Below the pieces are notes generated by a model that did no database searches, was not told the DNA's origin, and was given only the letters and a program-made list of their open reading frames with translations. Positions 8,967 to 22,054 of a stretch of 64,000 nucleotides of DNA are shown here, piece by piece. Each line of letters starts with the position of its first letter. Within the stretch, counting starts at the first letter, position 1. The translations under genes were made by a program, and so were the position numbers. The stretch covers positions 516,519 to 580,518 of the forward strand of contig CAVZYA010000001.1 in NCBI GenBank assembly GCA_963779415.1, read 5' to 3'. The DNA is from an uncultured Acidobacteriota bacterium. GTDB taxonomy: Bacteria; Acidobacteriota; Thermoanaerobaculia; UBA5066.

Positions 8967-10354
8967 TGGCCGGCGAGATCAGACCCAAGAGTGCGGGCGA
9001 GCTGCATGAGATGCGGGCGCCCTACGAGGAGTTCTGCCGGAAGGCCTTCGATCCCGGCAACGAGCACTCGAAGCCCGAGTCGCTGAAGGGGATCCGGTGG
9101 CTCTCCTGCACGATGTACATCTTCACGCCCCACTCGGCCGCGAACCTGGCCGAGCTGGGCGCCGAGGTGATCAAGATCGAGATCCCCCGGATGGGCGACG
9201 CCATGCGGCACACCTCGCCCTTCAACGAGGCGTACCTCTATCCCCTCCACGACACCCGGCCGGGGACGGGAACCGGGTTCGGGTTCACGAACGCCAACCC
9301 GAACAAGCACTTCATCTCCCTCGACTATCACGTACCGGAGATGCGGGAAGTTTTCTACAACATGGTCCGGCAGAGCGACGGGCTGACCGAGCTCTACCGT
9401 CCCGGGACCTTTGACCGCTGGAAGATGAGCTACCCGACCCTCGCGCAGATCAACCCGCGGTTCATCTACGTCTGGGGCGGCGGGTTCGGCTACGGGCCGA
9501 AGGTCTTCGGGGGCTCCTATGACATCCTCGCGCAGTCCCACGCCGGGTTCGCGTCCATCACCGGAATGCACGACTTCATGGGCGGCCACTGCTCCAAGTC
9601 ATCCAACTGGGTCATGGACTGGGCCTCCGGCACCCTGATCACGTTCGGGATCCTCGCCTCCATTCTCTGGCGCCGGAAGACCGGCCTCGGCACCATGATC
9701 GAGTTCTCGCAGGTGCAGACCTCCACGATGTTCACCGAGTATGCCGTTCCTCTTTACGGCCGGTTCGGCATCGTCCGGCAGCGGTGGGGAAACTGGGACA
9801 CCCAGCTCTGCGCCCACGGGATCATCCTTTGCGGCAAATCCGACTTCCCCGATGCCCAAAACCCGCAGGACAAGTTTGACGCCCGGTACGTCATGGTCTC
9901 CGCCTTCCAGGATGCGGACTTCAAGGAACTCTGCAACGTCGTCGGCCGGAAAGACATCTACGATAAATACAAAACGCACAAGGACCGGCTCGACCCCCGG
10001 GCCCAGGTCGACATCTACCAGGCGCTCGAGAAATGGGCCGGAGACAAGACCCGGGCGGCGGTGGTCAAGGTCCTGACCGACGCCGGCATCCTCGCCTCCC
10101 CCGTCATGAACGACCGGGAAGTCTACGAGTACGAGCACTACCGCGAGCGGGGCACCGTCCGCTGGATCGACGACCCCCTCTTCGGCGACTTCCTCCTGCA
10201 GGCCGGCTACAGCGCCGGCCACCTGGCCAAGACCCCGAGAAGGACGAACTGGATCTGGCGGCCCGTTGGCGCCGACAATGTCAAGATCTACCGGGATCTG
10301 CTCGGCTATCCACTGAGCAAGATCGAGGAGTGGTATGGCAAGGCCTACATCTAA
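8966..10354 (+). CDS. CoA-transferase family III (CaiB/BaiF/Frc-like), paralogue 2
   Basis: ORF 8861..10354 trimmed to ATG 8966 (TAATG junction with the upstream stop). Motifs [42 protein letters not shown] and [19 protein letters not shown]. Confidence 0.88.
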
Positions 10355-10368
10355 AAGGAGGCAGCGCC

Positions 10369-10854
10369 GTGTGTGACATCATCTGGTGCAAGAAGCAGGT
10401 TTCCGGCAAGACGTGCAACACCGTCAATTACCTGGACCCGTACAACTTCTGGAACTGGGAAGGCAAGGTGAACTGCGCCGAGTGCGGGACCGTCTACGCC
10501 ATCCACATGATCCAGGGCTTCATGTACAAGGGGCCAACGGAGAAACCCGGAGAGAAGCCCGACATGAGTCCCCTCTACGCCGACAAGCCGCTGGAGGGCT
10601 ACCGGTGTTACCTTCCCGGGATCGAGGGCAGGACGAGGCCTTGGCAGTGCCTCCCCCGACATATCTACCTCGGCCACGCGGACACGGTGAAGTGGAGCCT
10701 CCGCGGAAGACCCGTGCGTGGCTGGCGTCCTCAGCCGAAGTCTGCAGGCATCGCTGGAAGCTTCGGCCACAAGTGGGATATCGAGAAACTCTCACCGGAG
10801 ATCTGGGCCGAATACCAGGAGAAGCTGAAGAGCGGGAAGCTGAAGGACTGGTGA
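10369..10854 (+). CDS. Hypothetical protein with an N-terminal Cys cluster (zinc-ribbon-like)
   Basis: ORF 10033..10854 trimmed to GTG 10369, just downstream of AAGGAGG. The product starts VCDIIWCKKQVSGKTC..(18)..CAEC. No family recognised. Confidence 0.6.
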   Translation: MCDIIWCKKQVSGKTCNTVNYLDPYNFWNWEGKVNCAECGTVYAIHMIQGFMYKGPTEKPGEKPDMSPLYADKPLEGYRCYLPGIEGRTRPWQCLPRHIYLGHADTVKWSLRGRPVRGWRPQPKSAGIAGSFGHKWDIEKLSPEIWAEYQEKLKSGKLKDW

Positions 10855-10876
10855 GACATTCAGAAAGGAGCGCCAC

Positions 10877-11137
10877 ATGGCCGAGGGAAAACAGTTAACG
10901 CCTGAAGAATTCCTGGCTACGGTTCTCGTGCCGCAGTATGGCCGGGAAAGCGGGCACATGTGCTGGGATTGCAAGCACTTCAAACCGGTTCTGAAGGGCT
11001 CCAAGTTCCCGCCCACCGACACGATCGGCTGGTGCACGCAGATCCACTGGCCCTTCTACTGGTGCGTGACGGACTTCAACGTCGTCAAGAAGTGCTACGC
11101 CTTCGAGAAGGGCATTTACACCTTCAAGAAGTTCTGA
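10877..11137 (+). CDS. Small Cys-rich hypothetical protein (possible Fe-S or Zn protein)
   Basis: 86 aa, with GAAAGGAG 6 nt upstream. Cys pattern CWDC-x20-C-x9-C-x9-C. Confidence 0.65.
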   Translation: MAEGKQLTPEEFLATVLVPQYGRESGHMCWDCKHFKPVLKGSKFPPTDTIGWCTQIHWPFYWCVTDFNVVKKCYAFEKGIYTFKKF

Positions 11138-11138
11138 C

Positions 11139-11432
11139 ATGGAGGAGAACGTCCGGAAGGAGCTGGATACGCTCACGGGGATGGTGCTGACCTGGAAGAA
11201 GGACTATCTCGGGTCGGTATCATCCGATGAGGACTGCGAGTACCTCGCTCGGGAATTCCTGGACGAGGTGGAGACCCACGTCTACCCCTACGTGAGGAGG
11301 CTCATGGAATGCAATTTCCTCACGGGACCGGAGGCGACGGAGTTTCTCGACTCCTGCTATCGCCAGGCAGAGGAGCTGAACAAAGCCATCCAGCAGCCGG
11401 ACGCCAAACAGGGTGAAACGATAGGAGGGTAA
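11139..11432 (+). CDS. Hypothetical protein (acidic, probably helical)
   Basis: 97 aa. The ATG lies 1 nt after the upstream stop, and G/C at codon position 3 is high. No family recognised. Confidence 0.6.
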   Translation: MEENVRKELDTLTGMVLTWKKDYLGSVSSDEDCEYLAREFLDEVETHVYPYVRRLMECNFLTGPEATEFLDSCYRQAEELNKAIQQPDAKQGETIGG

Positions 11433-11434
11433 AC

Positions 11435-11854
11435 ATGGCTGAGAAATGCCGAGTGGGGGTCTGCGGGTACGACCCCGTTCTGGTGAAGGGATACGTCAAG
11501 ACAGGCGAGCGAGCCCTCTGGTGGCACCTGTCGGACGAGGTGTACGAACAATACCAGGTGAAGCCGGGTGACACCGTCACCGGGAAGATCCTGGCGGTTT
11601 ACGACGGGACCGGCACGAAGACGGCCTCCCCGAACGAGCCCTTCGAGTGGAAGTGCCCGAAGGAGTCGGGCCTGGCGGTCCTCCTGCCGCCTGCGACCAT
11701 CGTCAAGTTCAAGCTCTCCGCTTTCCATTTCCTCGAGCTGCTCGTGGAGAAGGTCGGCGGAAAGGACGTCTATCCCGGCAAGGAGCAGATGAGCTTGAAA
11801 TGGTGGCCCGAAGAGAGGATGAAGCTCGACTACAAGGTGCCTTACATCGAGTAG
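11435..11854 (+). CDS. Hypothetical protein
   Basis: 139 aa. AGGAGGG lies 5 nt upstream and the ATG is 2 nt after the upstream stop. N-terminal CRVGVC. No family recognised. Confidence 0.65.
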   Translation: MAEKCRVGVCGYDPVLVKGYVKTGERALWWHLSDEVYEQYQVKPGDTVTGKILAVYDGTGTKTASPNEPFEWKCPKESGLAVLLPPATIVKFKLSAFHFLELLVEKVGGKDVYPGKEQMSLKWWPEERMKLDYKVPYIE

Positions 11855-11948
11855 AACACAGGACGCTCTCTCCCCCGCTCCCTTGAAGCGCCGGTTCCGT
11901 TCGGACCGGCGGGCAAGGACCGGGCGGGGCGAAATCAGTCGCTCACGG

Positions 11949-11993
11949 CCCCCTCTCCTGGCCCTGAAGCACCAGGAGAGGGGGATTCTTTTT
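11949..11993 (+). terminator. Rho-independent terminator closing the CoA-transferase operon
   Basis: Perfect 13-bp stem ccccctctcctgg (11949-11961) / ccaggagaggggg (11972-11984) with a 10-nt loop, followed by attcttttt. Confidence 0.75.
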
Positions 11994-12048
11994 CATGTAT
12001 CCTCGGCGATGGAACGGTGACATTCGATCGGAAGGGAGAATCGCGTAC

Positions 12049-12291
12049 ATGACAGAACACGACAAGCCGAATGAAGAGGGCTACACGGCTCCGGCGTACG
12101 TCGACCCGGCGATGGGCGACAGCCCCCCCGTCGGAGGCCTGATTGACAACGAGGCCGTCTGCCGGGACTGCATGACCGCCGCCGAGGAAGTCAGCATGCG
12201 GCGCGGGTTTGTCGACCCCGTCTCCGAGCAGCAGGCCAAGGCGAAGGGGACCGTCTGCGCCCGGTGCGGCAAGAAACTCGTCGCCGCGTAG
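12049..12291 (+). CDS. Small zinc-ribbon-like protein (two CxxC knuckles)
   Basis: ORF 11995..12291 trimmed to ATG 12049, which has GGAAGGGAGAA just upstream. 80 aa with CRDC-x29-CARC. Confidence 0.55.
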   Translation: MTEHDKPNEEGYTAPAYVDPAMGDSPPVGGLIDNEAVCRDCMTAAEEVSMRRGFVDPVSEQQAKAKGTVCARCGKKLVAA

Positions 12292-12334
12292 CGCCCCCTT
12301 CAATCCAGCCGGACGGGGCGGGCGGAATCACCTC

Positions 12335-12748
12335 ATGGCAGAGCCGGAAAAGGCCCCACGACGAGAGGTCGTCGAGCAGCTCCTGCCGCTCGTGGTGGAG
12401 TTGATTCCAGGGCAGGCGGCTGAAGGCCTGATCGAAGTGCTCGAGCCGGGCAGCTACGAGGCCCATTCCCTCCGGACGCTTTGCGAGAATCTCCTCAGGA
12501 GAACGAACTGGAGCGTGGAGGAGCAGCAGGTCCTGGAGGACATCAGGAGACAGCTCGACGGGGGCCGGCTCCTCTGCCGGGGCCGACCCGTCGACGGCCG
12601 GGCTCTGGATCTCGCGGTGGTCGAGGAAACCGAAGCAGGCGAGAAGTATCTCTATGTGCCTGTCCACGCCATCAGGCCGCAGGAAGGCGGAGGCGCGGCA
12701 CCCCGGATCGCGCACCAAAGTTCAGCAGACGAGAGCAGGAGCCTATGA
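12335..12748 (+). CDS. Hypothetical protein
   Basis: ORF 12209..12748 trimmed to ATG 12335. Codon-position-3 G/C is high on the + strand, and the antisense ORF 12191..12718 looks compositional. No family recognised. Confidence 0.55.
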   Translation: MAEPEKAPRREVVEQLLPLVVELIPGQAAEGLIEVLEPGSYEAHSLRTLCENLLRRTNWSVEEQQVLEDIRRQLDGGRLLCRGRPVDGRALDLAVVEETEAGEKYLYVPVHAIRPQEGGGAAPRIAHQSSADESRSL

Positions 12749-12951
12749 GTTCCAGGTTCGTAGTCACGGAGAGCACCACGGTGGACGATGTTGCCGCGGC
12801 GGGCCGGCCCGACCCCCTCTACTGCAAACTCGGCCTGGGCCAGCAGGCCCGCGTCCTCGCGGACGAGATCGATGCCGCGCTTGGTGGGGATACGAGCTGC
12901 GGGGGCGCCGGACTCGGATATGTTCCGGACATCGTAGAGGTTGAAGAATAG
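12745..12951 (+). CDS. Small acidic-tailed hypothetical protein (candidate modifier or adaptor)
   Basis: ATG 12745 overlaps the upstream stop (ATGA). 68 aa: MSSRFVVTES..VLADEIDAALGGDTSCGGAGLGYVPDIVEVEE. Confidence 0.45.
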   Translation: MSSRFVVTESTTVDDVAAAGRPDPLYCKLGLGQQARVLADEIDAALGGDTSCGGAGLGYVPDIVEVEE

Positions 12952-12964
12952 CCTGGAGAATCGC

Positions 12965-13159
12965 GTGGAGATAGAGGCTCCCAAGGACTGGGACCCGAAG
13001 TGCCCAAAGTGCCAGGAAGAGCTTCGACGAATGCTCGAGCTGTCACAGTCGGTCTACGAGGACCTCGACCACGGCGCGGGGTTGTACCGGTTGCCGTTGC
13101 CACCTTGCACGCACCATGCGGCGCAGGGCGAGCACAAAGACGCAGGAGGGGTCGCTTGA
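12965..13159 (+). CDS. Small Cys/His protein ending ..DAGG-VA (candidate Ubl/sulfur-carrier-type modifier precursor)
   Basis: The track ORF starts at TTG 12941, but I prefer GTG 12965 (GGAG 6 nt upstream). 64 aa with CPKC-x32-CTHH and C-terminus EHKDAGGVA. Codon position 3 is mostly G/C. Confidence 0.45.
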   Translation: MEIEAPKDWDPKCPKCQEELRRMLELSQSVYEDLDHGAGLYRLPLPPCTHHAAQGEHKDAGGVA

Positions 13160-13199
13160 CAGACCCACTTGTGGCTTTCCGGCCGTCGGGCGCCCCGGC

Positions 13200-14411
13200 A
13201 TGATGGATCTGCTGGAGTCCGACCTGGAGCTCGTCGTCCGGTCAGGATTCATCTACCTGCCGCTCCTCTTTGATCCTTCGGTGGCGACGGAGATCGAGGG
13301 GAACGTGGGCAATCACCTGGTCGCCCGGGACGCCGGCAGGCATTTCGTTCGGACGATGAGCCTGCGATCGCTCGTTTCAAGCTACGAGGCTCTCTGGCCG
13401 AAGTCGTACGAGAAGTTGCGGCGGTCGAAGCTGTGCCGGTTCTCCGGGGACCTTTCGCCGGCCGAAACGGGCGCCAGCGAGCGGCTGAAGGAGATCCTCT
13501 TCTCCGTCATGCCGCACTTCGTCAGGAGGGGGAAGCGGCTCGACAGGAGGCGGCTGACCGAGGAGGACGTGCTGGACCTCATCGAGGAGAGAACCGGACT
13601 TCCCGGCGGATACGCCATGGCTGCAGCCAGCGCTCGGGATCCGGGCTCCATCCGGCAGATCCTCGTGGAACTCGAGGAACGCCGCCCGGCGGCCGAGCCG
13701 CTGCCCGAGGGCCGAATGTCTGCGCGGACCCTCGCGGATTGGCTTCTGCGCGCCCAGGAAGCCCGGATTCTGGAAGAGGAGAGCCAGCGACTGACGGGGT
13801 TTCTCTCCGCGCAGGAGGGCCTCGATACGAGGGCGGCCAGGCGGCTGGCGATTTTGCGGTGCGTCGCGGAGAAGGGGACGTTGGAAATCGACGGATTCGG
13901 CTTTCTGAGGACAGGACCCGGCGACGACTACGTGATCTACAAGCGCACCGGCGAGTTCGCTCTCAAGGACTACTACGGTCGGCTCTATCTGTTTCCGGAT
14001 TGCCGGGTTGCCGTGTCGACGGCCGCTGGCCTCAGGCCCTTCGTCGTGGAGACCTACAAGCATCCGTTTCTCGAGGCCCACGACTCCGGCCAGGAGATCT
14101 GCCTGGGCCGCACCACGGCGCGCCGCTTCTCCGGAGCGGCGGCGATCGTCGAGGCTCTGCAGGAGGGAATCAACGCCCTGCTCCATGGCTACAGCAGCCG
14201 GCGCCGAAACGGGTACCACAGACTGGAGGGACTGTTGAGGTCGGTCCGGCTCCCTGGCCCGGACGATCCCGGCTACCCGGAACCGCCGGACGACAGGCCC
14301 CGCTCCAAGCGGCACATCCTGGACGTCGACTTCGACGACTACCGCATCCCGGCCGATCACCCCGGGATCGTGTCGGGTCGGGTCGAGATCACCAACGACG
14401 TCGTGCCGTGA
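13200..14411 (+). CDS. Unknown protein with a putative UBC/E2-like C-terminal domain
   Basis: ORF 13116..14411 trimmed to ATG 13200, since the upstream gene ends at 13159. The C-terminal part reads DDYVIYKRTGEFALKDYYGRLYLFPDCRVAV..LRPFVVETYKHPFLEAHDSGQEICLGRT, which parallels the E2 core (..HPN..G.ICL..). The N-terminal ~230 aa are unassigned. Confidence 0.6.
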   Translation: MMDLLESDLELVVRSGFIYLPLLFDPSVATEIEGNVGNHLVARDAGRHFVRTMSLRSLVSSYEALWPKSYEKLRRSKLCRFSGDLSPAETGASERLKEILFSVMPHFVRRGKRLDRRRLTEEDVLDLIEERTGLPGGYAMAAASARDPGSIRQILVELEERRPAAEPLPEGRMSARTLADWLLRAQEARILEEESQRLTGFLSAQEGLDTRAARRLAILRCVAEKGTLEIDGFGFLRTGPGDDYVIYKRTGEFALKDYYGRLYLFPDCRVAVSTAAGLRPFVVETYKHPFLEAHDSGQEICLGRTTARRFSGAAAIVEALQEGINALLHGYSSRRRNGYHRLEGLLRSVRLPGPDDPGYPEPPDDRPRSKRHILDVDFDDYRIPADHPGIVSGRVEITNDVVP

Positions 14412-14884
14412 TGACGACGGACGACACCCTCTCGCGGGACGAGCCGCCCCGGGCGACGCCGGATCTGTTGCGGGACATAAGAACCATGCGCGCCGGCAGG
14501 CGGCGGAAGGAGCCCTTTCGGACGAGCCTCTACTCCCGGGTCGGGGGTCTGGTGAGGCGATATGGCCTGGACGAGGCGTTCCTCCGGGCGCTCGACTCCC
14601 CGGGCGGCTTCTCCCGGGACGGCCGTCCGGATGCCGTCCGGCCGAAGGGGAAAGCGCCCTATGCTCCTCCCCTCTTTTTCCTTTCCACGGAGAGAGAGCA
14701 CCGCGTGACGACGGTCATCCTGGAGAAAGTGAAGAGCCCGTTCCTCGCGTACGCCACGTCGCCCGACGAGATTCTCCTCTGCGAACGCCTGTTCCGTGAG
14801 GACCCGTCCCTTTCTCAGGAAACGCTCGCGTGCCATCATTTCGAGACGTTGATGCCGGCCGGAGCGGATTCCGGGCCGGGCTGA
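14411..14884 (+). CDS. Hypothetical protein
   Basis: ATG 14411 shares 1 nt with the upstream TGA (TGATG). 157 aa. No family recognised. Confidence 0.6.
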   Translation: MTTDDTLSRDEPPRATPDLLRDIRTMRAGRRRKEPFRTSLYSRVGGLVRRYGLDEAFLRALDSPGGFSRDGRPDAVRPKGKAPYAPPLFFLSTEREHRVTTVILEKVKSPFLAYATSPDEILLCERLFREDPSLSQETLACHHFETLMPAGADSGPG

Positions 14885-14899
14885 GGCGGGAGGAGAGTC

Positions 14900-16000
14900 G
14901 TGGAACGGATTTCGCCGCAACGCCGCCGGGAGATCGGGGAGAGAGTCGGCGCATTCCGCGAGAGCCAGGTCGGCGACGCCGTCAATCAGATTCTCGAGTT
15001 CGACAAGACGCCGGCCGACCTCAAGGCCTACATGGACCGGTTCGTCATCGGCCAGGAGCAGGGGAAGAAGATCATCTCCGTCGGCATCGCCTACCATTAC
15101 CGGAGGCTCGCGGCGGCCCTCAGGCGCGCCGTCGTCGAGAACGGCGAGGAGCTGGGCGCCGCCTTGCACGGCGCGGCCACGCCGAAGGCCAACATCCTGA
15201 TCGTGGGGCCCCCCGGCTGCGGGAAGACCTACACGGGCGAGGTCGCCTCCCGGCTCGTGGGGGTGCCGTTCGCCGTGGAGGACCTGACGAAGTTCAGCGA
15301 AACGGGCTACGTGGGCCAGAACGTGAGCGACATCCTCCTGGACCTGCTGATCGCGGCCGGCGGCAACCCCCAGGTGGCCCAGATGGGCATCGTCTACCTG
15401 GACGAGATCGACAAGATCGCCGCCGAGCCGATCGTCTCGAAGGACGTGTCGGGGCGCGGGGTCCAGAAGGGGCTCCTCAAGCTCGTCGAGGGGGCCGAGA
15501 ACACCATCGACCTGGGCCAAGAACGGATCTCCCTTTCCACCCGACACGTCCTGTTCATCGCAGGAGGCGTGTTCGAGGGGCTGGAAGGAACCGTCGGAAA
15601 GCGGATGGAAAGGGATCGTCTCGAAGGCGAGTGGAAGGACCACCTCCTCACGGACGACTTCGTCGGCTGCGGGATGGAGCGGCAGCTCATGGGGAGGTTC
15701 CCCGTTCGGGCCGTCTACGACCCGCTCAGCGTCGAAGACCTCAAGAACATCCTGCTCGAGAGCGAGGAGAGTCCGTCCCGCGCCTACATCGACGACCTGA
15801 AGGCGTGGAACATCGAACTCCGGTTCACGGACGGCGCTCTCACGGAGGTCGCGAGGCGCGCGCAGCAGGATCGGACGGGCGCCCGGGGACTCATCGGCAT
15901 CCTCCACAAGGTGCTTCTGGAGGACATGTACCGGCTTCCGGGCGTCCACACCGGCGAGCTGGTGGTGGACGAGAAGTACATCCGGGAGCGGCTCGGGTGA
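14900..16000 (+). CDS. ClpX/HslU-family AAA+ ATPase (minimal, with no zinc-binding N-domain and no IGF loop)
   Basis: GTG start after GGAGGAGAG. Motifs [27 protein letters not shown], Walker A GPPGCGKT, pore-1 loop ETGYVGQN, Walker [28 protein letters not shown] and sensor-2 TGARGL. Confidence 0.88.
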
Positions 16001-16803
16001 GATTCCGGGGGCTCTCGGAGCTGAAGCGCGCGCCATGCTTCGAGGCTCCCGTGGGAACCCTGCCGGAGTGGATCCGGATGACGCGTCACTCCCTCGCGAA
16101 GGCCTTCAAGATCAACGAGCTCGTCCGGTCCGTCCACGGGGACAGCTACGAGTGGTACGGATTCACCGTCGCCGAGCGGAGCGATCCGGAGCTGGTCGTG
16201 GACGTTCTTCTTCCGGCCAACGACGAGAACTTCACGGACCACACCCGCGTCGCACCCGAGGCGATCGACGCGTCGAGAGAGTCCCTCCCCCGGGATCGGG
16301 TGATCAACGGCTGGATCCACTCCCACGGGGCCCTGCCGTACGAAGGGTTCTCCTTCGTGGACGAGAGGAACCAGGAGGCCGTGACCGATTACGTGAACAC
16401 GCTTCTCAGGAAGCCGGTGGCCAAGAAGGAGATCCTGATCAGGGACCTCGCGATCCTCGTCGAGGGCCGCTTCTCGGAGAAGGAGCTGGAGCAGGGAAGC
16501 GTCGCGCTCATCACCGACGCCCCCGTCAAGGAGGCCCGGATCATCGAGACCATATACGGAAGCTTCTGCTTCGCCATCGTCATCGGCGACGACGGCTGGC
16601 ACAGGCAGCAGGTCCATTACCGCAGGCGGGGCATCCTTTCCGGGCAGACGACCGAGGAGAGCCGGGACACCGACATCGTCCTTTCGGGCGACGCGCGGCC
16701 GCTCACCGAGGCGGAGATCCAGATGCTGGCGGACGAGGTCCGCACCCGGATCCGGCCGGGCGTGGCCGTTCCACCCGAGCGGTTCGAGCGGGAGGCGACA
16801 TAA
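15997..16803 (+). CDS. JAB/MPN (JAMM) metalloprotease-domain protein
   Basis: JAMM signature: Glu in SYEWYGF, then [18 protein letters not shown] (HxH..S..D). The start is either GTG 15997 (GTGA overlap with the ATPase stop) or ATG 16078. The ~100-aa C-terminal extension is unassigned. Confidence 0.8.
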
Positions 16804-16840
16804 GGTCGGCGGCGGCCTGGGGCGAAGGGACGCGATCGGC

Positions 16841-18118
16841 ATGGAGACGGGACCGGCTCGCGAGAAGGCGCATGACCCGAGGCTGGACCGCCAGCTCCGG
16901 ATCCCGAACTGGAACCAGCGGGCCCTCGAGGAGGCGCGGCTCGCCGTCTTCGGCGACGACGACCTTCTCGCCTCGCTCTACGTCCTCTCCGCCGCGGCCC
17001 TCGGCGTGAACGACGTCGTCCTGATCGCGCCCGCCTGGAATGAGAAGCTGATCGAAATCGCCCGCCAGCTCAATCCGAGGCTCAGGCTGGCCCTCCTCGA
17101 GGGGCTCCACACCCACCCGGTCCTGGAGGAGCTCTTCAGGCCCTGCACGGCCATCGTGGACCTCACCCGCTACGCTCTGGCCAACAAGCTTCTGCTGGAG
17201 ACGGGCTACCGGTCGGGAATTCCGGTGATCCGTGGGTTCTGCCTCGAGAAAGACGGGTGGGAAGGGCTCTCCGTCTTCACCTACAGGCGCGGCCGGGAGT
17301 GGGAGGAGCTCCGGGAGCTCGTCTCGCCCTCCAATCTTCCCTGCGACCACTTCGACGACGCGATTCTGGCCCTCGTCGCGGCCGGCATCGCCCTGGAAGA
17401 AACCAAGAACGTCATCATGGGACACCGGGTGTCGGAGGAGCTGATCGGCTACAGGCGGCCGAAGGTGGTTCCCCTGGAGCCCGACTCCGGCGTCATCATC
17501 GTCGGCGCCGGCGCCCTGGGTAACTTCGTCGGGCTCGGACTGGCCTGTACGGGGCTCCGGCGAATCACGGTCGTCGATCCCGACGTGGTGGACGTGACTA
17601 ACCTCAACAGGCAGGTGCTCCTGGCCGGCGGCGTAGGCCGAAGCAAGGCCGAGGTCCTCTGCGAGCGCCTGCACTCCCTCTTCGGAATCCGGGCGGAGGC
17701 CCGGGTGGCTTATTTCCGGAAGGACTCCGAGCTCGACGCCTCCGACGCTGTCTTCGATTGCGTGGACAACTTCGAGACCCGGGTGATCCTGAGTGAGAGG
17801 TGCCGGGAAGAGGGAAAGGTGCTCATCAGCGGCGGCACGGGCCCTCAGGCCGGACAGGTCATCGTGTTCGATCCGGCGCGCCCGAGCGAAACGCCCGCGG
17901 AGGTTCTGGGACTCTACGAAATCGTCGAGAGGCGGGAGATCGACGCCTTCCGGAGGGAGACGGCGTCCTGCGCCTACCAGCCCGATCCGTCCGTCGTCAT
18001 GACGAATCAGATTATCGGAGGATTGATGGCCGATTCCTATCGTAGGCTCCTGGCCGGAGAGGAGACCCCGAATATCTTCTACGATTCGAGGAACGACGCC
18101 CGGATCTTCGGGGGGTGA
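16841..18118 (+). CDS. E1-like ThiF/MoeB/HesA-family adenylyltransferase with tandem (degenerate + active) Rossmann domains
   Basis: The active domain has VIIVGAGALGNFVGLGLACTGLRRITVVDPDVVDVTNLNRQVL and a Cys in RETASCAYQPDPSVVMTNQIIGG. The N-terminal half repeats the fold outline (LDRQLRIPNWNQRALEEARLAVFGDDDLLASLYVLSAAALGV) but lacks GxGxxG. Confidence 0.88.
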   Translation: METGPAREKAHDPRLDRQLRIPNWNQRALEEARLAVFGDDDLLASLYVLSAAALGVNDVVLIAPAWNEKLIEIARQLNPRLRLALLEGLHTHPVLEELFRPCTAIVDLTRYALANKLLLETGYRSGIPVIRGFCLEKDGWEGLSVFTYRRGREWEELRELVSPSNLPCDHFDDAILALVAAGIALEETKNVIMGHRVSEELIGYRRPKVVPLEPDSGVIIVGAGALGNFVGLGLACTGLRRITVVDPDVVDVTNLNRQVLLAGGVGRSKAEVLCERLHSLFGIRAEARVAYFRKDSELDASDAVFDCVDNFETRVILSERCREEGKVLISGGTGPQAGQVIVFDPARPSETPAEVLGLYEIVERREIDAFRRETASCAYQPDPSVVMTNQIIGGLMADSYRRLLAGEETPNIFYDSRNDARIFGG

Positions 18119-18191
18119 TAGAGTCGCGGCGAATTGCGTCCTGACGTGATGCGACGGCGAAAGGCCGCGGATCAGGGCCGAAGGAGCCGAG

Positions 18192-19415
18192 ATGAGCAGC
18201 GAGAACGACGTCGCGCAGACTCAGGAGGACCAGCCGATCGGCTGGCAGCGCCTCGGCGACGTCCTGACACCGCCGATTCCCGGCTTCGAGGACCTCCTCT
18301 TCCTTCCGAGCCTCGACAATCAGTCCTCCAACATCTACGTCCTGCCGGGGGACTGCGTAACGATCGTGGACCCGGGGAACGATTACACGGCCTTAATGGA
18401 GCTCTTCCCTGCGAGAGCCAGGCCCGAGGACGTCAGGAAGATCGTCCTGACGCACGGGCATTTCGACCACGCCATGGGGGCGCTCGAGTTCCTCAGGACG
18501 TATCCGGATCGCCCCACGGGCGCGCGCATCGAGCTGATCCTCCACGAAGGGGGTCCCGACCAGTTCAAGCAGACGGCGAGGGAGCAGGGCGCCTCCGTGA
18601 CCGAGGTACGGGGCGGGGAGACTCTCGAGCTGAGCGGCCTTTCCTTCGACGTGATCTACACGCCAGGCCATACCATCGACGGCATCGCCCTCTATCACGC
18701 CCCCTCGAGGACCGTCTTCAGCGGCGACGTCGTGCTGCCGCTCGCGGTAGCCGGACCCGATCCCAAGGCCGGGGGAAGCCTGGACCAGTACCTGTTCGGG
18801 CTGAGGGCGTTGCTCGCGAGGGAGATCGAGAACGTCCTCCCGGGCCACGGCCCCGTCGTCGGCCCGGGCGGGAGGAAGGTCATCGAGCAGACCTACGAGG
18901 CCGTCATGATGAAGCTCCTGGGGGTCGAGAAGCCGATCCCGTGGATCCAGGGTGCCATTCAGCTCGCGGAGCGCGGGCTGCTGGAAGAGGCCGTTTTCTG
19001 CGCCGGGAAAGAGCTGGCCCGCGACCCGGGGCACGCCAAGGCCCTCGAGCTCAAGGCCGTGTGCCTCAACGATCTCGGGCGGTCGTCTGAGGCCCTCGAG
19101 GTCCTGGATCGGCTGCAGGAGCTGCAGGCCGGCGACGATGCGTTCATCCACGTCGGCAGGGGATATGCCCTCATGGGGCTTGGCCAGTTCGAGGAGAGCG
19201 TCAAGTGCTTCGACGCCGCTCTCCGCATCACGCCGGGCCTGAGGGACGCGCTCGTCTACAAGGGGATGGCCCTCCATCTCTCGGGGAACCACGAGGAGGC
19301 CATGGACATCGAGCCCTTCAGGACGGAGTTCATGGGGCGGTTCCGGAGCGAGCTGCTCAAGGCGTCGCGGCCCGCCCCGAAGGATGGCCTCGCCGAAGGC
19401 ACTGGAAAGGCCTGA
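18192..19415 (+). CDS. Metallo-beta-lactamase-fold hydrolase fused to TPR repeats
   Basis: AAGGAG lies 5 nt upstream. Motif VLTHGHFDH (HxHxDH) and TPGHT. The C-terminal ~150 aa are TPR-like helical repeats (..AKALELKAVCLNDLGRSSEALEVLDRL..). Confidence 0.85.
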   Translation: MSSENDVAQTQEDQPIGWQRLGDVLTPPIPGFEDLLFLPSLDNQSSNIYVLPGDCVTIVDPGNDYTALMELFPARARPEDVRKIVLTHGHFDHAMGALEFLRTYPDRPTGARIELILHEGGPDQFKQTAREQGASVTEVRGGETLELSGLSFDVIYTPGHTIDGIALYHAPSRTVFSGDVVLPLAVAGPDPKAGGSLDQYLFGLRALLAREIENVLPGHGPVVGPGGRKVIEQTYEAVMMKLLGVEKPIPWIQGAIQLAERGLLEEAVFCAGKELARDPGHAKALELKAVCLNDLGRSSEALEVLDRLQELQAGDDAFIHVGRGYALMGLGQFEESVKCFDAALRITPGLRDALVYKGMALHLSGNHEEAMDIEPFRTEFMGRFRSELLKASRPAPKDGLAEGTGKA

Positions 19416-19540
19416 AAAAAGACTTCGAGATCCCGGGGCCAAGGGATAGACTCGCTCGCGTTTCACCCCAGATTCCGACCGCGGCCCGCGTCGCCGGCCT
19501 CTCCCGGCGAGCCGGGCAAGAGACAGGAGGAGACGTCGCC

Positions 19541-21214
19541 GTGAGCACGATTCCCGAAAACTATCTTCCCCCGAAGGAGTTCCAACCCGAGCGGATCTAC
19601 AAGCTGAAGGAGTTCGCGAGCTACCCGGATCCGCTGAACAGCACCGAGGAGCTACTCGACAAACAGATCGCCGCGGGCCGGGGCGACAGCCCGGCGGTCC
19701 TCTTTGCGGACAAGGTCCTGACCTACAAGCAGCTTCTGGGGGCGTCCTGCAAGATCGGGAACGCGCTCCGGAAGCTGGGGGTCGAGGAGTCGGACCGGGT
19801 GTTGCTCCGCTCTCCGAACGTTCCGCCCGCCCTCTTCACGAACTTCGGGGTCCTGAGGCTCGGGGCGGTCATCGTCCCGACCTCTCACATGCTCTCCCCC
19901 CCGGAGATCATCCACATCGCCAACAACGCCGAGGCGAAGGTGATCGTGGTGGCGTCCGCGTTCCTCGAAGGGGTCATCAAGGCGCGCCCGAACCTGAAGA
20001 CCGTCAAGCACGTCATCGTCTTCGGCGGCCAGCCCGAGGAGCTGAAGAAGCAGGATCTTCTCTGCTACGAGGAGCTCGTCGCGAACGAGGCGCCGGCCTT
20101 CGCCCCGGTACGCCGTCCGCGCAAAGCCGTCGCCGTTCTTCTTTACACCTCGGGCACGACCGGCCTGCCGAAAGGGACGGTCCACTACCAGGAAGAGGCC
20201 CTGATCGTTCCGGACACCTTCGGCAAGTACGGATGGAACGTCCAGCCGGAAGACATCATCTGCGGACCCGCGCCCATCTCGCTGGCCGGCGGATACTCGA
20301 CCGTGGCGACGATCCCCTTCCGGTTCGGCGCCGCGGCCTCCCTGATTCCCAAATTCACGCCGGACGGGCTCTTCGAGACGGTCCAGAATCACAAGGTGAC
20401 GATCCTGAGCGCCCTCCCCACGGCGTACCGCAAGATGCTCGAGGTTCCCGGCGCGGAGAAGAAATACAACCTCTCCACCCTCCGCGTCCTGACCGGTGGC
20501 GGTGAATCGCTGACCGCAAAAACCTACAACGACTGGAAGGGGCGCTTCGGCCAGGAGATCTACGAGGGGCTCGGCACGTCGGAGATGATGTACGTCTTCG
20601 TCTCGAGCGTGGTGACGCGGAAAGTCAAGCCCGGCGCGATCGGCACCGCCGTCCCCGGTTACGAGATCCAGGTCATCACCGAGGAGGGAAAGGTCGCCAA
20701 GCCCGGAGAGCTGGGCCGGCTTTACGCCCGCGGGCCGACGGGGACGCTCTACTGGCGCCCGTACGAGGACGGCGGCAGCATGCTGGAGAAGCAGAAAGCC
20801 GTCATCCGCGAGGGGTGGGTGCTCGTCGGGGACTTCTGCACGATAGACGACGACGGGTACCTCAGCTTCGTGTCGCGCCAGGAGGACCTGATCAAGAGCT
20901 CCGGCTACCGGATCGGACCCGAGGAGGTCGAGGACGCTCTTCTCAAGCACCCGGCCGTGGCGGACGCCGGCGTGATCGGGGTTCCGGACCCCGTCCGGGG
21001 CCACAACGTCAAGGCCTTCGTCCTCCTGAGGCCCGGACAGACGCCGAGCGACGAGCTGAAGCAGCAGATCATCGACAGTTGCCGAGATCACATCGCGATC
21101 TACAAGCTTCCCCGCATCATCGAATTCACGAGCGAACTCCCGCGCACCCTCCAGGGGAAGCTCCTCCGGCGGGTTCTGCGGGACAAGGACAAGGGGGCGG
21201 CTCCCGCGAGCTAG
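19541..21214 (+). CDS. AMP-forming acyl-CoA synthetase (benzoate-CoA-ligase-like)
   Basis: ORF 19205..21214 trimmed to GTG 19541, after AGGAGGA. AMP-binding motifs LLYTSGTTGLPKG, GYRIGPEEVE and a C-terminal ..LPRTLQGKLLRR. Confidence 0.9.
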   Translation: MSTIPENYLPPKEFQPERIYKLKEFASYPDPLNSTEELLDKQIAAGRGDSPAVLFADKVLTYKQLLGASCKIGNALRKLGVEESDRVLLRSPNVPPALFTNFGVLRLGAVIVPTSHMLSPPEIIHIANNAEAKVIVVASAFLEGVIKARPNLKTVKHVIVFGGQPEELKKQDLLCYEELVANEAPAFAPVRRPRKAVAVLLYTSGTTGLPKGTVHYQEEALIVPDTFGKYGWNVQPEDIICGPAPISLAGGYSTVATIPFRFGAAASLIPKFTPDGLFETVQNHKVTILSALPTAYRKMLEVPGAEKKYNLSTLRVLTGGGESLTAKTYNDWKGRFGQEIYEGLGTSEMMYVFVSSVVTRKVKPGAIGTAVPGYEIQVITEEGKVAKPGELGRLYARGPTGTLYWRPYEDGGSMLEKQKAVIREGWVLVGDFCTIDDDGYLSFVSRQEDLIKSSGYRIGPEEVEDALLKHPAVADAGVIGVPDPVRGHNVKAFVLLRPGQTPSDELKQQIIDSCRDHIAIYKLPRIIEFTSELPRTLQGKLLRRVLRDKDKGAAPAS

Positions 21215-21241
21215 GCGCCGACCCCGGCGAGGAGGCCGGCC

Positions 21242-22054
21242 ATGGCGGTCGTCACGGTGTCGCGCGGAGCCGGGAGCAAGGGGCAGGCATTCGCCCGGCA
21301 GCTTGCCGACCGCCTTGGATACGAGCTCGTCAGCCGGGAGGACGTCGTTCAGGCGGCGGCTAAATCCGGCGTCCCCGCCGAGAGGTTGCAAAAAGCGCTT
21401 CTCGAGGCGCCCGGCTTCTGGGACAGGCTCACCCTCGACCGGAAGCGATATCTGGCGTTCGTCCAGGCGGCGCTTTCGGAGCGGGCCCGCAAGGACCGGA
21501 TCGTCTACGAGGGGAACGCGGGACACCTGCTGCTCCGCGGCGTCTCGCACGTCGTCTGCATTCGTCTCCTGGCGCCGCTCTCGCACCGCGTCCAGACGGC
21601 CGTGGAAACTCTCGGGATGAGTCACGACGAAGCCGTTCGTTACATCGAGAGCTCGGATCACGAACGGGAGAACTGGACGCGCTTTCTCTACGGCGTGGAC
21701 TGGCTCGATGCCGCCCTCTACGACGTCACCCTCAATCTGAGGACGCTCCTGATCGACGGCGCCGTCGAGGCGGCGCTGGCGGTCGTCCAGCGCCCGGAGT
21801 TCGCGCCGACCGGAGAGAGCCGGAGCGCGATGGAGAACCTCGTTCTGGAAAGCCGCGTGCAGGCGGCCCTCGCGTCCAATGGCGAGACCGCGGCGGCGGC
21901 GGTCCAGGTACATGCCGGGGACGGAGTCGTGTCGCTTCGGGGCCGGGTCCGCCCGGCCCGGATGGTCGACGCCGTCCTCGGCGTCGTCGGCCGCGTGGAC
22001 GGTGTGAAGGAGATCGACTCGCGGGACCTCGGAGCGCCCGACTACACCGTTTAG
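21242..22054 (+). CDS. Cytidylate-kinase-like family protein with a C-terminal BON domain
   Basis: N-terminus VVTVSRGAGSKGQAFARQLADRLGYELV (P-loop-like, Cytidylate_kin2 type). C-terminus VQVHAGDGVVSLRGRVRPARMVDAVLGVVGRVDGVKEI (BON-like). Confidence 0.75.
   Translation: MAVVTVSRGAGSKGQAFARQLADRLGYELVSREDVVQAAAKSGVPAERLQKALLEAPGFWDRLTLDRKRYLAFVQAALSERARKDRIVYEGNAGHLLLRGVSHVVCIRLLAPLSHRVQTAVETLGMSHDEAVRYIESSDHERENWTRFLYGVDWLDAALYDVTLNLRTLLIDGAVEAALAVVQRPEFAPTGESRSAMENLVLESRVQAALASNGETAAAAVQVHAGDGVVSLRGRVRPARMVDAVLGVVGRVDGVKEIDSRDLGAPDYTV

What the first reader, a model, noticed from the sequence alone, without database searches (positions are those of the whole stretch)
14900..16803. Stripped-down ClpX/HslU-type unfoldase translationally coupled to the JAMM protease gene
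Seen: the ATPase keeps the substrate-translocating GYVG pore loop (15305-15316) and all ATPase motifs. It starts directly at the ..[10 protein letters not shown].. helix, so the ClpX C4 zinc-binding N-domain is missing. Between ..[13 protein letters not shown] and ..MGRFPV it has only [33 protein letters not shown]. That segment has no (I/L/V)-G-(F/L) tripeptide, and there is no HslU-type I-domain. The JAMM ORF can start at a GTG overlapping the ATPase stop (GTGA, 15997-16000).

Established: the IGF loop docks ClpX on ClpP, and the zinc-binding domain binds adaptors.

Inference: this is a ClpP-independent unfoldase working with a JAMM isopeptidase, reminiscent of the Rpn11/Rpt pairing. No ClpP or HslV gene is present in the window.
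Basis: partly seen in the sequence, partly recalled or inferred. Interest (0 to 1): 0.75.

Follow-up and report, generated by a model that had tools for sequence, protein, structure and literature searches.

The report
Bacterial ubiquitin-like cassette with built-in unfoldase
A trimmed-down ClpX-type protein-unfolding motor that has lost the loops needed to dock on the ClpP protease is fused at the gene level to a Rpn11-like JAMM peptidase, inside a conserved six-gene cassette that also encodes a di-glycine-ended modifier protein, an E2-like and an E1-like enzyme; this looks like a bacterial counterpart of the tag-recognise-unfold part of the eukaryotic ubiquitin system.

Summary
The 366-aa ATPase (14900-16000) is ClpX-like. 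It keeps Walker A/B, the GYVG pore loop (15305-15316), the arginine finger and sensor II. It has no zinc-binding domain, no RKH loop, no HslU I-domain, and an IGF region of 13 residues against 28 in E. coli ClpX. The same holds in 74 of 75 relatives. It does not start at the FVIGQ helix: a conserved, cysteine-free 35-residue segment comes first.

The pair sits in a cassette: modifier ending ...PQEGG plus a variable tail, an E2-like protein, an unknown 158-aa protein, the ATPase, the JAMM protein and a ThiF-type E1. In 45 fully covered loci from Desulfobacterota, Methylomirabilota and Binatia, each of these parts is present in 42-44.

The most likely function is ClpP-independent unfolding or extraction of modifier-tagged proteins, coupled to tag removal. 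I found no published description. All evidence is computational.

The parts
12335..12748 (+). Candidate ubiquitin-like modifier precursor (137 aa). The conserved body ends in AIRPQEGG (12668-12691) and is followed by an 18-residue non-conserved tail (12692-12745).
   Evidence: More than 60 homologues carry an invariant ...(R)A(I)KPQEGG followed by 0 to about 25 variable residues; three end exactly at GG. The gene is present in 44 of 45 fully covered loci. The beta-grasp fold is not shown: the PDB profile search and hhalign gave no significant hit.
13197..14411 (+). E2-like protein (403-404 aa). The N-terminal ~225 aa are of unknown function. The C-terminal part has a UBC-like fold with YKHPFLEAHDSGQEICLG (14055-14108), where the invariant His-Pro and Cys are the candidate HPN-like motif and catalytic cysteine.
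14408..14884 (+). Conserved protein of unknown function (p158). It always lies between the E2-like gene and the ATPase gene and overlaps the E2-like stop by 4 nt in the window.
   Evidence: It is present in 42 of 45 fully covered loci (alignment). It is missing together with the ATPase in L022. The only similarity found is a weak one to the C-terminal helices of ribosomal protein bL20 (E = 0.0017).
14900..16000 (+). ClpX-like AAA+ ATPase (366 aa) lacking the zinc-binding domain, RKH loop, IGF loop and I-domain. Landmarks: N-terminal family-specific segment 14900-15007; Walker A 15206-15229; GYVG 15305-15316; Walker B 15389-15412; shortened pore-2 loop 15419-15454; RKH-loop stub 15494-15538; IGF-loop stub 15590-15634; Arg finger 15689-15706; sensor II 15878-15892.
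   Evidence: NCBIfam ClpX 258 bits (cut-off 359) and HslU 152 bits (cut-off 362). PDB ClpX E = 2e-56, with gaps at the loops. Comparison of 75 family members with E. coli ClpX. Coordinates. The top 120 listed homologues (64-94% identity) are nearly all 363-372 aa.
15997..16803 (+). JAMM/MPN+ metallopeptidase-like protein (268 aa). GTG start in a GTGA overlap with the ATPase stop. Glu at 16150-16152 (EWYG). [15 protein letters not shown] at 16318-16362, i.e. H-x-H-x8-S-x2-D.
16841..18118 (+). E1-like adenylating enzyme (425 aa). The N-terminal half looks like a degenerate Rossmann domain (GDDDL at 16952-16966 in place of GxGxxG). The C-terminal half is an active ThiF domain (GAGALGN 17504-17524, NLNRQ 17600-17614). 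The invariant Cys lies in ASCAY (17963-17977).
   Evidence: Pfam ThiF E = 1.7e-35 over residues 216-411. Alignment of 19 homologues. Present in 43 of 45 fully covered loci, either after the JAMM gene (43 loci) or before the modifier gene (20 loci). The pseudo-dimer reading of the N-terminal half is inference from the motif pattern only.
18192..19415 (+). Metallo-beta-lactamase-fold protein with C-terminal TPR repeats. It is often, but not always, linked to the cassette.
   Evidence: Pfam Lactamase_B E = 5.7e-24 plus TPR families. tblastn finds it in 31 of 83 loci, and it is present in 17 of the 45 fully covered ones.
10877..11854 (+). Three small conserved ORFs of unknown function (p86 at 10877-11137, p97 at 11139-11432, p139 at 11435-11854). 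They travel with the MBL-TPR gene next to the cassette in a subset of genomes. Whether they belong to the system is uncertain.
   Evidence: No Pfam or PHROG hit. They are found as a trio in about 18-22 of 83 loci.

Best explanation
What it is. The finding is the motor-and-peptidase core of a six-gene, chromosomally conserved ubiquitin-like conjugation cassette: modifier, E2-like protein, p158, ClpX-like ATPase, JAMM peptidase, E1.

Proposed mechanism. Steps 1-3 are inferred from family chemistry. Steps 4-5 are inferred from anatomy and gene linkage.
1. The JAMM peptidase trims the variable tail of the modifier precursor and exposes ...PQEGG.
2. The ThiF-type E1 adenylates the C-terminal glycine.
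3. The modifier passes to the conserved cysteine of the E2-like protein and then onto target proteins.
4. The ClpX-like hexamer engages tagged proteins, perhaps through its own conserved 35-residue N-terminal segment and/or p158. It uses its intact GYVG pore loops and ATPase site to pull on and unfold or extract them.
5. The JAMM peptidase is made in fixed proportion by translational coupling and probably sits on the ring. It cleaves the modifier off as the substrate is threaded, as Rpn11 does on the Rpt ring.

Expected outcome. The ClpP-docking IGF loop is reduced to a stub and no chambered peptidase is encoded nearby. The expected result is therefore remodelling, disassembly or hand-over, as with a Cdc48/p97-type segregase, rather than degradation inside ClpP.
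For: ATPase anatomy. Walker A/B, GYVG, the arginine finger and sensor II are intact. The zinc-binding domain is absent (no Cys in the first 45 aa in 75 of 75 members). The RKH loop is 7 residues shorter, and the IGF region is 13 against 28 residues in 74 of 75.

Hard-wired pairing. The ATPase is directly upstream of the JAMM gene in 82 of 83 loci. The overlap is 4 nt in 70 and 1 nt in 9 of 81 loci, while all other junctions vary from -130 to +640 nt.

Cassette. In 45 fully covered loci: modifier 44, ATPase 44, E2-like 43, E1 43, p158 42.

Modifier. The invariant ...PQEGG is followed by a variable tail of 0 to about 25 residues.

E2 fold and motif. E1.

No ClpP or HslV in the window or in any of 83 loci, about 1.2 Mb in all.

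Context is metabolic, not mobile or defence-related. The JAMM family is absent from viral contigs.
Against: Nothing here shows a physical ATPase-JAMM contact, unfolding activity or conjugation.

The modifier has no detectable similarity to ubiquitin, ThiS or MoaD, and its fold was not modelled.

One genome (L022) keeps E1, modifier, E2 and JAMM without the ATPase and p158. Conjugation and deconjugation can therefore apparently run without the motor.

Some family members have Q-G-F, Q-G-I or M-G-L in the loop stub, so residual ClpP contact is not formally excluded.

ClpP is normally encoded elsewhere in a genome, so its absence from these loci is weak evidence.

No ATPase-JAMM gene fusion turned up among the 150 best representatives.
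Confidence: 0.55

Rival explanations
1. Degradation machine. The ATPase still delivers tagged substrates to a chambered protease, either ClpP through a non-canonical contact or an unrecognised partner. The cassette would then be a true bacterial 'ubiquitin-proteasome-like' degradation pathway rather than a segregase.
For: ClpX is the closest relative. Many family members keep a glycine flanked by F, I or L in the shortened loop, for example RQGFQG, RQGIEG and RMGLEG. Bacterial genomes usually encode ClpP elsewhere.
Against: The loop is 15 residues shorter than in ClpX in 74 of 75 members. The window's own protein reads RDRLEGE, with no hydrophobic-Gly-hydrophobic. The motif is not conserved (only 2 of 66 match [ILVM]G[FLMIV]). 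No peptidase other than the JAMM protein is in the cassette. The C-terminus (..RLG) is not an HbYX or HslU-type tail.
Confidence: 0.12
2. Anti-phage defence system of the Bil/CBASS-Cap2/Cap3 kind. The modifier is conjugated to phage proteins and the ATPase unfolds or dismantles them. The mechanism is the same; only the biological role differs.
For: The characterised bacterial E1/E2/JAB/Ubl operons (Bil, type II CBASS) act in phage defence (PMC11601603, PMC10557695). The structural neighbours of the JAMM and E2-like models include BilC, Cap3, BubB and Cap2. The E1 gives weak matches to Cap2-type 'E1-E2' and '6A-MBL' models, and an MBL-fold gene is often adjacent.
Against: The JAMM, E2-like, modifier and p158 proteins have no PADLOC hit. 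Gene order and sequence are conserved across Desulfobacterota, Methylomirabilota and Binatia at 45-70% JAMM-protein identity, which fits largely vertical inheritance. The neighbours are metabolic or regulatory genes, not defence islands or mobile elements. No viral relatives were found.
Confidence: 0.15
3. The ATPase acts upstream of conjugation rather than on conjugates. For example, it unfolds or presents the modifier precursor to the JAMM protein for tail removal, recycles dead-end E1/E2 adducts, or assembles the enzyme complex.
For: The tight ATPase-JAMM coupling fits any task the two share, including precursor processing. The modifier has a variable, probably disordered N-terminus and C-terminal tail that a translocase could grip. 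In the decayed locus L001, the modifier, ATPase and JAMM genes persist without E2, while E1 is reduced to a remnant.
Against: Other JAMM peptidases that process Ubl tails, such as the BilC, Cap3 and archaeal JAMM1 structural neighbours, need no ATPase, as far as I know from the literature. Three homologues already end at GG yet keep the ATPase (L011, L018, L083).
Confidence: 0.1
4. Sulfur-carrier or small-molecule biosynthesis system of the ThiS/MoaD/CysO-Mec+ type. It would involve no protein conjugation, and the ATPase would be an unrelated passenger.
For: ThiF-type E1s and JAMM peptidases work with GG-ended carrier proteins in cysteine and siderophore biosynthesis; this is established knowledge that I recalled, not something tested here. 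CoA-transferase and acyl-CoA synthetase genes flank the cassette in the window.
Against: An E2-fold protein with an invariant Cys lies in the cassette. The E1 has no rhodanese domain, and no sulfurtransferase gene was noted in the contexts read. The ATPase-JAMM overlap is far too conserved for a passenger. The metabolic neighbours are not conserved across loci.
Confidence: 0.05

Closest known systems
ClpX (AAA+ unfoldase of the ClpXP protease, e.g. E. coli ClpX)
   Same: It is the best sequence match (E = 2e-56 to ClpX structures, about 38% identity). The AAA+ large and small domains match, as do Walker A/B, the GYVG pore-1 loop, the arginine finger (GR[LF]P) and sensor II (GARGL).
   Different: There is no C4 zinc-binding N-domain; a conserved cysteine-free 35-aa segment takes its place. 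The RKH loop is absent, the pore-2 loop is 3 residues shorter, and the IGF ClpP-docking loop is a 13-residue stub. The score is below the ClpX equivalog cut-offs. The gene is coupled to a JAMM gene, not to clpP.
HslU (AAA+ partner of HslV)
   Same: It belongs to the same ClpX/HslU branch of AAA+, has the GYVG pore loop, and gives a partial HMM match (152 bits).
   Different: It has no I-domain: GYVG is followed almost at once by Walker B. No HslV is nearby. The score is far below the cut-off of 362, and the protein is closer to ClpX than to HslU.
Rpn11 on the Rpt1-6 ring of the 26S proteasome (19S lid/base)
   Different: The motor is of the ClpX/HslU clade, not the classical Rpt/PAN clade. It has no coiled-coil/OB N-ring. 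There is no 20S core or any other chambered peptidase, and no Rpn8-like MPN partner was seen. The pairing is an analogy, probably convergent, not homology of the complex.
Bil (BilABCD) and related bacterial ubiquitination-like operons (Bub, type II CBASS Cap2/Cap3)
   Same: The parts list matches: Ubl, E2, JAB/JAMM peptidase and E1, as separate genes as in Bil (PMC11601603). BilC, Cap3, BubB and Cap2 are among the structural neighbours of the JAMM and E2-like models.
   Different: There are two extra obligatory genes, the ClpX-like ATPase and p158. The JAMM, E2-like and modifier proteins hit no defence-system profile. The modifier shows no detectable similarity to known Ubls. The context is conserved and chromosomal in anaerobic or sediment lineages rather than a defence island. 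The Bil/Bub papers read here do not mention any ATPase.
Cdc48/p97-Npl4 with associated deubiquitinases; Pup-Mpa/ARC-Dop in Actinobacteria
   Different: The AAA+ clades differ (type II Cdc48, Mpa with coiled-coil/OB). Pup is disordered and is ligated by a glutamine-synthetase-like enzyme, not by E1/E2. Those systems feed or cooperate with a 20S proteasome.

Membership tests
ClpX | AAA+ module with Walker A/B, arginine finger and sensor II | tested here: met
   [22 protein letters not shown] and GARGL are present and conserved in 75 of 75 family members. Pfam AAA_2 E = 6.6e-18.
ClpX | GYVG pore-1 loop | tested here: met
   Residues 136-139, 15305-15316. All four commonest pore-1 variants, which together cover 68 of the 75 members, read GYVG.
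ClpX | N-terminal C4 zinc-binding domain | tested here: not met
   No cysteine in the first 45 residues in 75 of 75 members; about 25 residues align where ClpX has 60.
ClpX | IGF loop that docks on ClpP | tested here: not met
   The region equivalent to ClpX 258-285 is 13 residues against 28 in 74 of 75 members. The window reads [13 protein letters not shown]. Only 2 of 66 members have an [ILVM]G[FLMIV] tripeptide.
ClpX | RKH loop | tested here: not met
   16 residues against 23, with no R-K-H.
ClpX | Score above the curated equivalog cut-off | tested here: not met
   NF003745: 258.1 bits against 359. TIGR00382: 235.3 against 370.75.
HslU | I-domain inserted after the pore loop; HslV partner | tested here: not met
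   GYVG (136-139) and Walker B (164-171) are 24 residues apart. TIGR00390 scores 152.4 against 362.45, split into 3 stretches. tblastn finds no HslV.
JAMM/MPN+ metallopeptidases | MPN fold | tested here: met
JAMM/MPN+ metallopeptidases | Catalytic motif E...H-x-H-x7-S-x2-D | tested here: met
   E52, H108, H110, S119 and D122 are invariant in 27 sequences. The spacing is H-x-H-x8-S-x2-D, one residue longer than the consensus.
JAMM/MPN+ metallopeptidases | Match to curated JAB/Prok-JAB profiles | tested here: not met
   No Pfam, NCBIfam, PADLOC or PHROG hit at E <= 0.01 (E <= 0.001 for PHROGs). The family is highly divergent.
JAMM/MPN+ metallopeptidases | Zinc-dependent isopeptidase activity | not testable with these tools
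   Needs an enzyme assay.
Ubiquitin-like modifiers | C-terminal Gly-Gly, exposed directly or after removal of a tail | tested here: met
   ...PQEGG is invariant in more than 60 homologues, with 0 to about 25 variable residues after it; three end at GG.
Ubiquitin-like modifiers | Beta-grasp fold | tested here: inconclusive
   The profile search against PDB gave no significant hit. hhalign against Ub/NEDD8 and ThiS/MoaD/SAMP2 found nothing.
E2 / UBC-fold conjugating enzymes | UBC fold | tested here: met
E2 / UBC-fold conjugating enzymes | HPN-type motif followed by the catalytic Cys | tested here: met
   YKHPFL-x6-Q-x-IC(L/M), with H, P and C invariant. hhalign aligns it to HPN...C of human E2s, but at P = 0.09.
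E2 / UBC-fold conjugating enzymes | Match to curated UBC profiles | tested here: not met
   No Pfam, PADLOC or PDB-sequence hit.
E1 / ThiF-MoeB adenylating enzymes | ThiF adenylation domain with a nucleotide-binding glycine motif | tested here: met
   PF00899 E = 1.7e-35. GAGALGN and NLNRQ are conserved.
Bil-type bacterial ubiquitination operon | Separate Ubl, E2, JAB and E1 genes in one operon | tested here: met
   All four are present in 43-44 of 45 fully covered loci. There are two extra genes (ATPase, p158).
Bil-type bacterial ubiquitination operon | Sequence membership in defence-system profiles, or an anti-phage role | tested here: not met
   Only the E1 hits the generic Cap2 'E1-E2' PADLOC models. 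The JAMM, E2-like and modifier proteins hit none. The context is not defence-like. The anti-phage role itself is not testable here.

The most novel reading that the evidence does not exclude
This is a housekeeping bacterial machine in which a di-glycine modifier, its E1/E2 cascade, a JAMM deconjugase and a dedicated AAA+ translocase form one unit. That would be a ClpX-derived functional equivalent of the proteasome's Rpt/Rpn11 module, or of Cdc48 plus a deubiquitinase. It would unfold or extract tagged proteins without any proteolytic chamber. It is widespread in Desulfobacterota, Methylomirabilota and Binatia. It would be the first case of ubiquitin-type tagging wired to an unfoldase in Bacteria, and it would have arisen independently of the archaeal/eukaryotic line.
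Probability: 0.45. Interest if true: 0.88.

Novelty: new variant of a known kind. Interest (0 to 1): 0.78.

Why it matters
Coupling of ubiquitin tagging to an ATP-driven unfoldase with a resident JAMM deubiquitinase is regarded as an archaeal and eukaryotic invention. The known bacterial E1/E2/JAB/Ubl operons (Bil, Bub, CBASS Cap2/Cap3) have no motor.

Here a ClpX-derived motor has shed its ClpP-docking loop and its adaptor domain and is translationally locked to a JAMM peptidase inside a Ubl cascade. This would show that the tag, unfold and de-tag logic evolved, or was assembled, in Bacteria as well.

It would also give a small, six-protein, soluble model for studying how a deubiquitinase is coordinated with a translocating ring. 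And it would point to an unexplored layer of protein regulation in sulfate-reducing, syntrophic and methane-oxidising lineages.

It also defines a wider clade of ZBD-less, IGF-less ClpX-like ATPases that JGI annotation labels 'ClpX' (NCBI labels them 'AAA family ATPase' or 'hypothetical protein').

Tried and rejected
Searches that gave nothing:
- Profile searches of the JAMM, E2-like, modifier, p158, p86, p97 and p139 proteins against Pfam, NCBIfam, PADLOC and PHROGs.
- Sequence and profile searches against the PDB for the JAMM, E2-like and modifier proteins gave nothing significant. p158 gave only a weak bL20-like hit.
- hhalign of the modifier against Ub/NEDD8 and ThiS/MoaD/SAMP2.
- hhalign of the E2-like domain against four human E2s aligned HP..C correctly, but at P = 0.09.
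- BLASTP of the E1 N-terminal half against its C-terminal half showed no detectable similarity. The pseudo-dimer idea rests on the motif pattern only.
- The promoter and terminator scan of 10300-21400 found no more than chance.
- The source record could not be found by looking up the window's ATPase. Only an unnamed 2.18-Mb contig is known.
- The afdb50 fold library was unavailable.
- No relative of the JAMM family was found in IMG/VR.
- No ATPase-JAMM fusion ('Rosetta stone') is among the 150 best representatives. The long hits P0377 and P0383 carry other C-terminal extensions.
- Six literature searches and three papers (Iyer 2006 and two Corbett-lab preprints) yielded no description of a ClpX-like ATPase in a bacterial Ubl operon. 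Subscription-only papers were not searchable, so prior description cannot be excluded.

Ideas considered and rejected:
- HslU-type identity: there is no I-domain.
- p97 as a second GG modifier: its terminal GG is not conserved.
- A programmed -1 frameshift that fuses the ATPase and the JAMM protein: there is no slippery heptamer at the junction, and the overlap type (ATGA, GTGA, TTGA, or 1 nt) fits termination-reinitiation.
Full report
**1. Observation: the ATPase**

The ORF at 14900-16000 (+) encodes a 366-aa protein. Its best family matches are ClpX (NCBIfam NF003745, 258 bits; TIGR00382, 235 bits). HslU follows at 152 bits. All three are well below the curated equivalog cut-offs of 359, 371 and 362. 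Against solved structures the best hits are ClpX chains (E = 2e-56), then mitochondrial CLPX, then HslU.

The residue-level alignment to E. coli ClpX shows intact functional motifs (coordinates):

| Motif | Sequence | Coordinates |
|---|---|---|
| Walker A | GPPGCGKT | 15206-15229 |
| Walker B | IVYLDEID | 15389-15412 |
| Arginine finger | MGRFPV | 15689-15706 |
| Sensor II | GARGL | 15878-15892 |

The gaps fall on the loops that make ClpX a ClpXP component. I aligned 75 full-length family members from related loci with E. coli ClpX:

- The region equivalent to ClpX 258-285 (IGF loop) is 13 residues instead of 28 in 74 of 75 members.
- The RKH-loop region is 16 residues instead of 23 and holds no RKH.
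- The pore-2 loop is 3 residues shorter.
- None of the 75 has a cysteine in the first 45 residues, so the C4 zinc-binding domain is absent.
- GYVG and Walker B are 24 residues apart, which leaves no room for an HslU I-domain.

One detail of the finding is wrong. The protein does not begin at the FVIGQEQ helix. Forty-seven residues precede it, and about 35 of them form a conserved, family-specific segment (consensus ..R.QV..AV..I(I/L)EF(D/N)KTP..LK) that replaces the zinc domain.

Some members carry Q-G-F, Q-G-I or M-G-L in the loop stub. The window's protein reads RDRLEGE.

**2. Observation: the JAMM ORF and the overlap**

The downstream ORF gives no hit in Pfam, NCBIfam, PADLOC, PHROGs or PDB sequence searches. 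It nevertheless has 698 homologues, nearly all 265-268 aa.

In an alignment of 27 of them, E52, H108, H110, S119 and D122 are invariant (GWIHSHG-x7-FS-x2-D). This is the JAMM motif with one extra residue between HxH and Ser.

An AlphaFold2 model (pLDDT 83) matches MPN/JAMM structures almost exclusively:
- Foldseek: E = 4e-5 to the Caldiarchaeum Rpn11 homologue.

The GTG at 15997 overlaps the ATPase TGA (GTGA, 15997-16000). The 27 residues it adds ahead of the internal ATG at 16078 are conserved at the protein level (L6 and P23 invariant; R2, L9, R11, E16 and L22 nearly so). The overlapping start is therefore the real one.

In 81 related loci the junction is a 4-nt overlap in 70 (ATGA 45, GTGA 22, TTGA 3) and a 1-nt overlap in 9. 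Every other junction in the cluster ranges over hundreds of bases.

tblastn with E. coli ClpP and HslV finds nothing in the window or in 83 loci.

**3. What surrounds it**

A scan of one genome per species with the JAMM alignment returned 80 loci. They come from:
- Desulfobacterota: Syntrophobacterales, Desulfobacca, Desulfobacterales, and the isolate Desulfoferrobacter suflitae DRH4.
- Methylomirabilota.
- Binatia.
- One MAG labelled Acidithiobacillales, which is the closest relative of the window (70-85% identity).

tblastn with the window's neighbours shows a conserved cassette: a 120-140-aa protein, a ~400-aa protein, a ~130-220-aa protein (p158), the ATPase, the JAMM protein and a ThiF-type protein. 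The ThiF gene lies either after the JAMM gene (43 loci) or before the first gene (20 loci).

In the 45 loci with enough flanking sequence, the parts are present as follows:

| Part | Present in (of 45) |
|---|---|
| Modifier | 44 |
| ATPase | 44 |
| E2-like protein | 43 |
| E1 | 43 |
| p158 | 42 |

*The first protein (window 12335-12748).* It ends, in every homologue, in ...RA(I)KPQEGG followed by 0 to about 25 non-conserved residues. Three homologues stop exactly at GG. This is the signature of a ubiquitin-like modifier precursor. Its fold could not be confirmed.

*The last protein (16841-18118).* It has a Pfam ThiF domain (E = 1.7e-35) in its C-terminal half, with GAGALGN, NLNRQ and an invariant cysteine. 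Its N-terminal half begins like ThiF but has GDDDL where the glycine motif should be. This suggests a single-chain pseudo-dimeric E1, which is inference only.

*p158.* It has no informative relative; the only hit is a weak one to bL20 (E = 0.0017).

Two natural variants are informative:
- L022 has E1, modifier, E2 and JAMM, with p158 and the ATPase missing together.
- L001 is a decayed locus. It has an E1 remnant and lacks E2 and p158, yet keeps intact modifier, ATPase and JAMM genes.

The context in the window and elsewhere is metabolic or regulatory: CoA-transferases, acyl-CoA synthetase, aminotransferase, aldehyde dehydrogenase, heterodisulfide-reductase-like genes and two-component systems. 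No mobile-element or defence genes were seen. The JAMM family has no relative in IMG/VR viral contigs.

**4. Mechanism**

*Shown:*
- The ATPase keeps the residues needed for ATP hydrolysis and substrate translocation and lacks the ClpP-docking, adaptor-binding and RKH elements.
- Its gene is translationally coupled to a gene for a JAMM-fold protein with a complete catalytic motif.
- Both lie in a cassette with a GG-ended modifier, an E2-fold protein and an E1.

*Inferred:*
- The JAMM peptidase matures the modifier, and E1 and E2 conjugate it to targets.
- The ATPase ring engages the conjugates through its novel N-terminal segment and/or p158, and threads them.
- The JAMM peptidase, made stoichiometrically and probably bound to the ring, removes the modifier during threading, as Rpn11 does.
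- With no docking loop and no chambered peptidase in the cassette, the output is unfolding, extraction or remodelling rather than degradation.

I give this a confidence of 0.55. The rivals are:
- Delivery to ClpP or another protease through a non-canonical contact (0.12).
- The same machinery used for phage defence (0.15). This concerns the role, not the mechanism.
- An ATPase role upstream of conjugation (0.10).
- A sulfur-carrier pathway (0.05).

**5. Comparison with known systems**

*Membership.* The ATPase is a ClpX-like paralogue, not ClpX: the zinc-binding domain, IGF loop, RKH loop and equivalog score were all tested and not met. It is not HslU either. The peptidase is a divergent JAMM/MPN+ member: fold and motif are met, curated profiles are not.

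*The cassette.* It has the Bil parts list (Ubl, E2, JAB, E1; PMC11601603) plus two obligatory extra genes, and its proteins fall outside the defence-system profiles.

*What it works like.* The closest functional analogies are Rpn11 on the Rpt ring, and Cdc48 with deubiquitinases. The motor, however, belongs to a different AAA+ clade, and there is no core particle.

*A wider clade.* The all-against-library search found more distant proteins of 357-383 aa (41-50% identity). They share the same N-terminal ..EF.KTP..LK segment, GYVG, MGRFPV and a short IGF region. A broader clade of ZBD-less, IGF-less ClpX-like ATPases therefore exists. Its genomic contexts could not be examined here.

**6. Novelty and verdict**

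Six literature searches returned no paper describing a ClpX-like or any AAA+ ATPase in a bacterial E1/E2/JAB/Ubl operon, and none of the three key papers I opened mentions one. Subscription-only literature was not searchable.

Public annotation calls the ATPase 'ClpX' (JGI) or 'AAA family ATPase' / 'hypothetical protein' (NCBI, UniRef). The JAMM and E2-like proteins are named only 'hypothetical protein', and p158 and the modifier carry no Pfam family in the contexts read.

I rate this a new variant of a known kind: a bacterial ubiquitination-like system with an integrated unfoldase. Interest is 0.78. All functional statements remain computational inferences.

Noticed in passing
window 10877-11854 (+) and 18192-19415 (+): Three small ORFs lie here: p86 (Cys/Trp-rich), p97 and p139. 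None has a family hit. They are conserved as a trio (45-85% identity) and travel with an MBL-fold+TPR protein next to the Ubl cassette in about 18-31 of 83 loci. They sit either directly upstream (Methylomirabilota, Binatia) or downstream on the opposite strand (Desulfobacterales). They could be substrates, regulators or an accessory module.
   Followed up: partly
window 14408-14884 (+): The profile of the unknown p158 family gives a weak match (E = 0.0017) to the C-terminal helical region of ribosomal protein bL20 (basic stretch, then ..LF..I..LV..YGL..F). This may be chance or a shared helical motif.
   Followed up: no
L022:7156-10801: One uncultured deltaproteobacterial genome has E1, modifier, E2 and JAMM genes contiguous, but p158 and the ATPase are both missing. 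The two appear to form a separable module.
   Followed up: partly
L001:9346-11901 (= L036): This is a decayed version of the locus. A 66-aa ORF is a remnant of the E1 C-terminus, the E2-like and p158 genes are absent, and the MBL-TPR gene is truncated. The modifier, ATPase and JAMM genes remain intact with the 4-nt overlap.
   Followed up: partly
window 12745-12951 and 12941-13159 (+): Two small ORFs lie between the modifier and E2-like genes. The first (68 aa) overlaps the modifier stop by ATGA and is seen only in the closest relative. The second (72 aa) has a CPKC motif and is conserved in 7 loci (Methylomirabilota, Binatia and close relatives). Whether either is coding is uncertain.
   Followed up: no
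window 7467-10854 (+); L084:1122-4567: Two tandem CoA-transferase family III genes plus a 161-167-aa Cys-rich ORF precede the p86-p97-p139 trio in the window and in its relative GCA_040961615.1, where an IclR regulator lies upstream. This may be an unrelated metabolic operon or a linked one.
   Followed up: no
L002:12044-12232: In Desulfobacca-type loci a 62-aa Cys/Trp-rich ORF sits between the JAMM and E1 genes. It is seen in only 3 loci.
   Followed up: no
proteins P0369, P0371, P0372, P0376, P0379: More distant ClpX-like proteins of 357-383 aa share the family-specific N-terminal ..EF.KTP..LK segment and the shortened IGF region. A wider ZBD-less, IGF-less clade therefore exists, and its genomic contexts are unknown.
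   Followed up: partly
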